Shown here: positions 49,500 through 50,330 of the stretch, piece after piece | Layout: every line of letters starts with the position of its first letter | Numbering within the stretch: position 1 is the stretch's first letter | Assembly (NCBI GenBank): GCA_002104945.1 | Contig: MCFH01000003.1 | Span: forward strand, 1,178,001-1,242,000 | Length of the DNA: 64,000 bases | Reading direction: 5' to 3' | Source of the DNA: Piromyces finnis finn | Lineage: Eukaryota > Fungi > Neocallimastigomycota | The notes under the pieces: generated by a model | The model's database searches: none | What the model was told of the DNA's origin: nothing | What the model saw: only the letters and a program-made list of their open reading frames with translations | Position numbers and translations under genes: made by a program

Positions 49500-50330
49500 C
49501 TATTTATTTTTTAATGACATTGAAAAAGCATATTCTAAAAATGAATCATCTATATCAGGAATATTTGTAGAAAAAGGATAATAATAGATTTCATCATTAT
49601 TATAGTCATGTACAAAACCTTCTTTATCTGTAATTAGATCTTCCATACTCTTGACCAGTTCTCTTTGCATATAACCAGTAGAAAAAGTATTGAGAGAAGT
49701 TGAAATAATACCAGCACGACCTGATTTAGAATGTATAAATAGTTCCTTTGCTGTAAGTCCTTCGGAATAGGAACTTTTAATATAACAACTCTGCAAAACG
49801 GCTTGAATTCCTACAGACATTAAAATTTGAATTACATTATCAATTTTTCCTTTCGAACCACTATTGACAATATTGGTTAAATTATTTTTAATGGATATAG
49901 ATAAATATTCTAATAGTGGGTAATTTTTTAAATAATACTTTCTTATTTCTCTTATCTCTTTACTGTCCTTGTCTTGAGAAAGAATTGACGAATCTAAATT
50001 TGGAAGTTGTATTGCCGATAAAGTGTCTGGAATTTTTTCTAAAATGGATGTAAACTCATTCTCAATGCCAGGGTCTGGTATACAATCAAAAATGGATATA
50101 CTTATGATGTGAAACAAATTGTATTCATGAACCATACGTTGTACATCCCACATAAATTTTAAATAAAAATCGTTACCGTAGTGTGTAATAGAATTTAATA
50201 ATACAGTTTGATTGGCACCATTAATAGTGTGAAGAAGAATATCACAATACTTTACTATCATTAATCCAATATTATCAATGGATCAATTGACCCTACTGTT
50301 TCAAATATTTGTAATAATTCACATCAATTC
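49500..50330 (-). pseudogene. 5'-truncated fragment of a minimized Rpb1/beta'-like RNA polymerase subunit (funnel to bridge helix), viral or linear-plasmid type
   Basis: NNLTNIVNSGSKG..N..Q...VGIQ, SSYSEGLTAKELFIH..GRAGIISTSLNT..TGYMQRELVKSMEDL matches Rpb1 NN...MV..GSKG..N..Q...VGQQ...SY..GLTP.EFFFH..GREGLIDTAVKT..TGYIQRRLVK..ED. Intronless; in-frame stops just upstream of 50261; natural-looking stop ~45 aa after the bridge helix. Confidence 0.85.

What the first reader, a model, noticed from the sequence alone, without database searches (positions are those of the whole stretch)
49500..50261. RNAP fragment has a ~24-aa funnel deletion and stops just after the bridge helix
Seen: between VGIQAV and (LQSC)YIKSSYSEGL there is no equivalent of yeast Rpb1 [24 protein letters not shown]. 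The ORF ends ~45 aa after TGYMQRELVKSMEDL, with no trigger loop or clamp. Known: in pGKL2-type elements the largest-subunit motifs are split, with the C-terminal part on a separate small ORF. Inference: the ancestral gene was a naturally split, streamlined RNAP rather than a randomly broken Rpb1.
Basis: partly seen in the sequence, partly recalled or inferred. Interest (0 to 1): 0.7.

Follow-up and report, generated by a model that had tools for sequence, protein, structure and literature searches.

The report
Viral RNA polymerase missing its F-loop
This is a broken leftover of a giant-virus-like element in a gut fungus; intact copies show its RNA polymerase is naturally built in two halves (already known) and lacks a 24-residue loop near the active site that other such enzymes keep and likely need for speed.

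Summary
Observation confirmed. The ORF lacks exactly 24 residues against yeast Rpb1 (771-797) and stops 44 codons after the bridge helix. Neither is decay: 12 of 13 scorable copies in this genome and 19 of 21 scorable database homologs have the same spacing (the rest 26, 30, 32), all end there, and dN/dS is 0.07-0.21. The window copy has lost its 5' two-thirds at 50244; intact copies are ~720 aa with clamp head and catalytic loop. The trigger loop is on a separate 510-554-aa gene 15-22 kb away in a ~48-kb element with primase-type PolB, D5, Rpb2, capping enzyme, helicase, UDG, SSB and TFIIS, and no detected capsid gene. This fits the published 'fundsalphavirus'/moss NCLDV-like elements, whose RP1n/RP1c split is known since 2014; it is not pGKL2-type. 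Not found in print: the deletion removes the likely F-loop, kept full-length in solved Pol I/II/III, archaeal, vaccinia and ASFV enzymes, leaving it 4 residues shorter than in bacteria, while the trigger loop has changed too. A metagenomic clade shows a similar loss. Activity is untested.

The parts
49500..50244 (-). 3' third (residues ~477-721) of the element's Rpb1-N subunit gene: end of pore, funnel, bridge helix, short tail; 5' two-thirds lost
   Evidence: 94% identity to intact copy L017:588-2750 over residues 477-721; DNA similarity ends at 50244
49848..49862 (-). conserved funnel motif SGSKG (yeast G750-K752 region), retained
   Evidence: [quoted passage not shown]
49788..49796 (-). three residues (LQS) standing in for yeast Rpb1 771-797: the 24-residue deletion, likely the F-loop
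   Evidence: F-loop identity inferred from position just before the bridge helix and from recall
49644..49751 (-). bridge helix (yeast 810-845 equivalent)
   Evidence: ungapped alignment of query 166-221 to yeast 798-853
49500..49502 (-). native stop of Rpb1-N, at the family-wide position
   Evidence: tail 58-65 aa from TGY in 12 of 13 scorable genome copies; 57-75 in 20 of 21 database homologs
50245..50282 (-). unrelated flanking DNA that supplies the accidental ATG at 50261
47937..48554 (-). intact uracil-DNA glycosylase gene of the element (205 aa), always next to Rpb1-N
   Evidence: PDB UNG hits to 1.8e-23; 89% to other copies; dN/dS 0.09
46302..47039 (+). small, likely secreted cargo gene of the element
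   Evidence: 45% to the C221 homolog
45382..46131 (-). ankyrin-repeat cargo gene, C-terminal part
   Evidence: Pfam; 54% to residues 149-394 of the C192 homolog
43977..45190 (-). N-terminal third of a ~1380-aa likely secreted cargo protein, broken
   Evidence: 46-51% to residues 32-429
42644..43390 (-). C-terminal part of the element's SNF2/D6-D11-like helicase
   Evidence: 62% to residues 932-1180 of the C215 copy; 49% to the C151 copy
42355..50244 (.). extent of the element remnant in the window (~7.9 kb, with an internal deletion), flanked by host DNA
   Evidence: blastn against other copies

Best explanation
The ORF is the 3' third of one subunit gene from an endogenous, giant-virus-derived element of gut fungi, whose largest RNA-polymerase subunit is encoded as two separate genes and lacks 24 residues that likely form the F-loop. 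In intact elements a ~720-aa N-half (clamp head, catalytic loop, funnel, bridge helix) likely assembles with a ~510-550-aa C-half (trigger loop, C-terminal clamp) and a ~1100-aa Rpb2 into the element's own transcription enzyme, as archaeal A' and A'' do, working with the element's capping enzyme, helicase and TFIIS-like protein. The deletion was fixed in the ancestor of the gut-fungal family and kept under purifying selection. The enzyme likely tolerates it because its trigger loop changed as well (yeast M1079 and T1080 positions to S and A, predicted to loosen the open state). Shown: truncation of this copy, family-wide end and deletion, separate C-half gene, selection. Inferred: assembly, activity, F-loop identity, compensation. 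The window copy cannot make a working subunit.
For: Four full-length open frames of 724-743 aa in G000 with Pfam Rpb1 domains 1-5. K-to-G spacing 31 in 12 of 13 scorable genome places and in 19 of 21 scorable family proteins, the others 30 and 32, against 55 in yeast. Separate C-half ORFs of 510, 535 and 554 aa match yeast 1043-1148 and 1266-1429 and archaeal A'', and lie upstream of the N-half gene in 3 of 3 units holding both, which excludes read-through. dN/dS 0.14-0.18 among four intact N genes, 0.07-0.21 for the window fragment against them, 0.25-0.30 among three C genes. Same gene set and same split reported for moss and fungal NCLDV-like elements. M1079-pocket variants are gain-of-function in yeast.
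Against: No activity, expression or structure data: the AlphaFold job never returned and no run is on record as RNA. Other trigger-loop changes in the family (F1086 and P1099 positions) are loss-of-function in yeast, so compensation is not the only reading. No alpha-like, Rpb5, Rpb6 or Rpb10 subunit gene was identified in the element (PF01191 found one host locus only; the others were not searched), so assembly would need host or unrecognised subunits. The read check did not list a contig bridging the 50244 break.
Confidence: 0.85

Rival explanations
1. It is a decayed host Rpb1 (or Pol I/III) pseudogene; the stop is a nonsense mutation and the deletion is random.
For: The window copy is itself truncated and lies among intron-containing host genes.
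Against: Same stop region and deletion across copies down to about 55% identity and across genera; dN/dS well below 1; intronless; the host's own largest subunits are elsewhere, on C68, C175 and C222.
Confidence: 0.01
2. It comes from a pGKL2-type cytoplasmic linear plasmid (virus-like element) with an Rpb2::Rpb1 fusion and a small C-terminal subunit.
For: Split after the bridge helix, capping enzyme and helicase present, no capsid gene detected, cargo of chitin-binding and likely secreted proteins.
Against: Rpb2 is a separate 1100-aa gene; the clamp N-half that pGKL2 lacks is present; PolB is PF00136/PF03104 type with a D5 primase, not a terminal-protein fusion; no terminal inverted repeats seen around units.
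Confidence: 0.03
3. The split polymerase is real but no longer a transcriptase: the F-loop loss and trigger-loop drift mark a crippled or repurposed enzyme kept for another role.
For: F-loop deletion slows Taq RNAP about 70-fold; changes at F1086 and P1099 equivalents in the family C-halves; divergent Rpb2 link motif.
Against: Catalytic DFDGD, funnel GSKG, bridge helix and trigger-loop Q1078, L1081 and H1085 equivalents are conserved; capping enzyme, helicase and TFIIS are kept beside it; strong purifying selection.
Confidence: 0.08
4. The window fragment has been domesticated by the host and is expressed as a 253-aa protein from the ATG at 50261.
For: The frame is open over 245 codons with dN/dS 0.07 against its closest copy.
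Against: Low dN/dS is expected from selection before insertion; neighbouring element genes are broken or partial; the fragment lacks the catalytic loop; other genomes' fragments break at different places.
Confidence: 0.03

Closest known systems
Fundsalphavirus endogenous elements of early-diverging fungi (Gong et al. 2020, PMC7017919)
   Same: Reported in Neocallimastigomycota; shared genes PolB, D5, D6/D11-like helicase, methyltransferase, RPB2, RP1n and RP1c, all found here.
   Different: The text read does not mention the funnel deletion, unit size or cargo; RPB5 was not detected in the G000 elements.
Physcomitrella NCLDV-like regions (Maumus et al. 2014, PMC4083422)
   Same: RP1n/RP1c fission under purifying selection, UDG, SSB, capping enzyme, TFIIS, D5, no capsid or packaging ATPase.
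   Different: Reconstructed at ~13 kb against ~48 kb here; FLAP nuclease and RPB5 not seen here; a moss relative (P0110, Sphagnum) keeps spacing 50 and a chytrid relative (P0101) 53.
Archaeal RNAP subunits A' and A''
   Same: Split shortly after the bridge helix; C-half carries the trigger loop.
   Different: Archaea keep the full loop (spacing 55); the element's N-half groups with viral split subunits, not archaea.
Yeast pGKL2 ORF6/ORF7 RNAP (Sykora et al. 2018, PMC6211774)
   Same: [quoted passage not shown]
   Different: pGKL2 fuses Rpb2 to Rpb1, lacks the clamp regions a1-a10 and uses a protein-primed polymerase. Its F-loop length was not tested.
Engineered F-loop deletion of Thermus aquaticus RNAP (Miropolskaya et al. 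2014, PMC3874190)
   Same: Loss of the loop just before the bridge helix.
   Different: There it is a 13-residue lab deletion that slows catalysis ~70-fold; here it is natural, fixed and selected.
Mycodnaviridae (Myers et al., PMC13533422)
   Same: Giant-virus insertions in zoosporic fungi.
   Different: Defined through capsid genes, up to 350 kb, related to Imitervirales/Algavirales; main text has no mention of gut fungi.

Membership tests
Fundsalphavirus / moss NCLDV-like elements | Largest RNAP subunit on two genes, RP1n and RP1c | tested here: met
Fundsalphavirus / moss NCLDV-like elements | Family B DNA polymerase, D5 primase-helicase, SNF2-like helicase, cap methyltransferase, RPB2 clustered | tested here: met
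Fundsalphavirus / moss NCLDV-like elements | UDG, SSB and TFIIS in the cluster | tested here: met
   UDG; TFIIS ribbon; SSB-like by Atlas features 0.94 to NCLDV clusters, DUF2738 read as SSB from recall
Fundsalphavirus / moss NCLDV-like elements | RPB5 gene | tested here: inconclusive
   PF01191 hits only one locus on C161; a divergent copy among the unknown ORFs is possible
Fundsalphavirus / moss NCLDV-like elements | No major capsid protein or A32 ATPase | tested here: inconclusive
   no match for PF04451 (no positive control rang) or PF04665 (control rang in 3 of 14); four core ORFs remain unassigned
Fundsalphavirus / moss NCLDV-like elements | PolB groups with Pithovirus-related clade | not tested
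   no PolB tree built; the Rpb1-N tree places the family near moss and chytrid relatives with SH-aLRT 90
pGKL2-type virus-like elements | Rpb2::Rpb1 fusion | tested here: not met
   separate Rpb2 and Rpb1-N ORFs
pGKL2-type virus-like elements | Clamp regions beta'a1-a10 absent | tested here: not met
   Rpb1_1 domain and zinc motifs present
pGKL2-type virus-like elements | Protein-primed DNA polymerase with terminal protein | tested here: not met
   PF00136 + PF03104 and D5
Canonical multisubunit RNAP active centre | Catalytic DFDGD loop, funnel G-x-K, bridge helix, trigger-loop Gln and His | tested here: met
   in intact copies; the window fragment lacks the catalytic loop
Canonical multisubunit RNAP active centre | F-loop of bacterial (spacing 35) or archaeal/eukaryotic/viral (55) length | tested here: not met
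   spacing 31
Canonical multisubunit RNAP active centre | DNA-dependent RNA synthesis | not testable with these tools
   needs biochemistry
Mycodnaviridae | NCLDV major capsid protein gene | tested here: inconclusive
   none detected, no positive control

The most novel reading that the evidence does not exclude
Gut fungi carry a still-active, capsid-less replicon of ~48 kb descended from giant viruses (circular or concatemeric, loaded with secreted-protein cargo), whose split RNA polymerase works with no F-loop thanks to a re-tuned trigger loop. It would be the extreme of a wide, undescribed radiation of miniature split viral polymerases (N-halves of 440-750 aa) in which the loop eroded stepwise.
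Probability: 0.3. Interest if true: 0.78.

Novelty: new variant of a known kind. Interest (0 to 1): 0.52.

Why it matters
The F-loop is thought to drive trigger-loop folding, and deleting it cripples a bacterial enzyme. A natural, selected polymerase without it, with matching trigger-loop changes, gives a ready set of candidate suppressors for testing how the F-loop, bridge helix and trigger loop work together. It also predicts alpha-amanitin-resistant transcription. The near-complete units in this genome sharpen the open question, posed in 2014, of whether these elements are viruses or capsid-less replicons.

Tried and rejected
Complex prediction of the two halves: not run, so no verdict. pGKL2 ORF6 sequence: not in the plasmid collection's listed hits (30 of 74 rows shown, all bacterial); its loop length is untested. 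Maumus RP1n supplementary alignment: 0 hits for three funnel motifs, apparently trimmed; other supplements unseen and could show the deletion. Sequencing runs: no RNA holder listed. Read laying: other copies run on past the break into the intact gene; only one of four runs covered the flank and no bridging piece was listed. Independent origin of the two extreme loop losses: suggested by two trees but a single clade is not rejected (p-AU 0.47). Target-site duplication at the remnant's ends: only an 8-base AT-rich match, not accepted. PHROGs, PDB and Atlas gave nothing for the 730-, 282-, 194- and 146-aa core ORFs. Earlier-findings look-ups were empty. Literature searches for a natural F-loop loss or for this element's RNAP found none; subscription journals are largely outside the library.

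Full report
Setting. The window is very AT-rich and holds dockerin-bearing CotH and GH5 genes, typical of anaerobic gut fungi. It lies on G000:C156. The closest named database proteins are from Piromyces, Neocallimastix and Anaeromyces.

Observation. The minus-strand frame 49500-50282 encodes 260 aa with Pfam Rpb1_4 and Rpb1_5. Against yeast Rpb1, query 162 pairs with 770 and query 166 with 798, so 24 residues are missing. Measured from the Lys of GSKG to the Gly of the GL motif, the spacing is 31 against 55. The frame stops 44 codons after SMEDL. Homology to intact copies starts at 50244, residue 477 of 721; upstream DNA, including the ATG at 50261, is unrelated. Contigs of other copies in four public runs continue past that point into the intact gene.

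The end and the deletion are family traits. G000 gave 22 matches, four with open frames of 724-743 aa that carry Rpb1 domains 1-5, zinc motifs and ADFDGD. The 15 fetched loci are 14 places; 13 could be scored: 12 have spacing 31, one degenerate copy 26; 12 of 13 stop 58-65 residues after TGY and one is frameshifted. Of 26 family proteins among the 211 aligned, 21 were scorable (5 end early or lack an anchor): 19 at 31, one at 30, one at 32; tails are 57-75 in 20 and 37 in one; none has a trigger-loop motif. Pairwise dN/dS (Nei-Gojobori) is 0.14-0.18 among four intact genes and 0.07-0.21 for the window fragment. One Neocallimastix cluster has 75 members, most of the 15 listed being 719 aa.

The other half. 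A search with the archaeal A'' model found separate ORFs: 510 and 535 aa on C221, 554 aa on C188. They match yeast 1043-1148 (trigger loop) and 1266-1429, and archaeal Rpo1C; dN/dS 0.25-0.30. In the three units that hold both genes, C lies 15-22 kb away and upstream of N on the same strand, so the stop is not bypassed in cis.

The element. On C221 and C215 the order is UDG, Rpb1-N, capping enzyme, Rpb2, D5, two unknown ORFs, PolB, Rpb1-C, a 730-aa unknown, a small TFIIS-like zinc ribbon, an SSB-like ORF, a SNF2-like helicase, a 282-aa unknown, then cargo (large and small likely secreted proteins, ankyrin and chitin-binding proteins). C215 repeats 20 kb at about 99% identity with a 54.2-kb period that includes a ~6-kb LTR retroelement, giving a unit of ~48 kb; C221 holds two units about 80% alike in tandem. 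No NCLDV capsid (no positive control) or A32 ATPase was detected. The window holds a 7.9-kb remnant, 42355-50244: helicase tail, broken cargo, UDG and the Rpb1-N tail.

What is known. Maumus et al. (PMC4083422; passages, Discussion and one supplement search seen) described RP1n/RP1c fission under purifying selection in capsid-less moss NCLDV-like regions. Gong et al. (PMC7017919; parts 1-2 of 3 and part 1 of 7 of the supplement) listed RP1n and RP1c among genes shared by 'fundsalphaviruses', including those of gut fungi. The split is therefore known. pGKL2 differs by its Rpb2 fusion, missing clamp and protein-primed polymerase (PMC6211774 passages and section 17; PMC13348850 abstract and passages; PMC2919709 passages). 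Mycodnaviridae (PMC13533422 abstract and passages) and egoviruses (bioRxiv 2024.03.23.586382 passages) do not cover gut fungi in the text searched.

What looks new. A full-loop viral control stretch aligned without net length change to Pol I, II and III, archaeal A', vaccinia Rpo147 (108 to 108 residues) and ASFV (104 to 105). All 31 scorable of 80 IMG/VR loci have spacing 54-64. Bacterial beta' has 35. The family's 31 is the shortest class seen among 192 scorable of 211 proteins, where 55 is the mode (46). The segment sits directly before the bridge helix, where the F-loop lies (PMC3874190, parts 1-2 of 5; the yeast numbering is my recall). Deleting the Taq F-loop slows nucleotide addition ~70-fold, and only when the trigger loop is present. 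In 15 family C-halves with the motif (of 20 hits) the loop reads QSAL or QLAL then SYFH (one NYFH), and the Pro-Arg of the second helix is replaced: Q1078, L1081 and H1085 are kept, while M1079, T1080, N1082, F1086 and P1099 are changed. In yeast, M1079-pocket variants are gain-of-function but F1086 and P1099 variants are loss-of-function (PMC5127505 passages), so compensation is plausible, not shown.

Wider pattern. The profile search returned many stand-alone N-halves of 440-750 aa with spacings from 50 down to 32; 19 non-family ones have 37 or less. Trees built without the loop columns (FastTree on the scorable rows less near-duplicates; IQ-TREE quick on 57 chosen rows) place the family beside relatives with 45-50 (support 82) and moss and chytrid proteins with 48-53 (support 90; names), apart from the spacing-33 clade. 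A single origin is not rejected (p-AU 0.47). These proteins are almost all unnamed metagenomic records.

Limits. No structure model, no complex prediction, no RNA evidence, no pGKL2 alignment. Six literature searches found no report of the deletion; unseen supplements might show it.

Verdict. The locus is a dead fragment of a known element family with a known split; the F-loop loss with trigger-loop divergence is a new variant worth a mechanistic test. Interest 0.52.

Noticed in passing
window 22057-23884 and 25352-26920: Inverted duplication, 99% identical, holding two identical 352-aa ketol-acid reductoisomerase genes head to head, 1467 nt apart, with ~128-nt subrepeats at the outer ends.
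   Followed up: partly
window 21027-21835: A second, separate relic of the same element family: frameshifted piece of a 1275-aa cargo gene, 82% DNA identity to the C215 copy.
   Followed up: partly
G000:C215 87785-108005 and 142064-162121: About 1.4 head-to-tail units of the element, 99% identical, with both outer junctions not at an obvious terminus; fits a circular or concatemeric source.
   Followed up: partly
G000:C192 202301-225566: Large palindrome of the UDG/Rpb1-N/cargo arm, 97% identical arms, centred between two Rpb1-N 5' ends.
   Followed up: no
proteins P0018 and P0241: An N-half and a C-half seen on 30 and 47 assembled contigs, both with longest contig 42,490 bp: possibly a complete unit recurring in many runs.
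   Followed up: no
proteins P0158 and P0124 clusters: Miniature N-halves (540, 553 aa) whose members lie on contigs of near-equal length (24.7-24.9 kb; 48.7-48.8 kb), hinting at complete small genomes.
   Followed up: partly
protein P0225: Short-loop Rpb1-N that ends in a TFIIS-like zinc ribbon with QTRSADE, an apparent subunit-factor fusion.
   Followed up: no
G000:C193 77166-80558: Intact 1131-aa element PolB standing alone among host genes.
   Followed up: no
L020, L022, L027, L055, L061: The element's Rpb2 link motif, which neighbours the F-loop in solved enzymes (recalled), is identical in these five loci (four copies) and differs from the canonical form as recalled.
   Followed up: no
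window 47937-48554: The UDG has GDMPY where canonical enzymes have GQDPY and HPIY at the HPS motif; these changes are shared with other copies, so glycosylase activity is uncertain.
   Followed up: no
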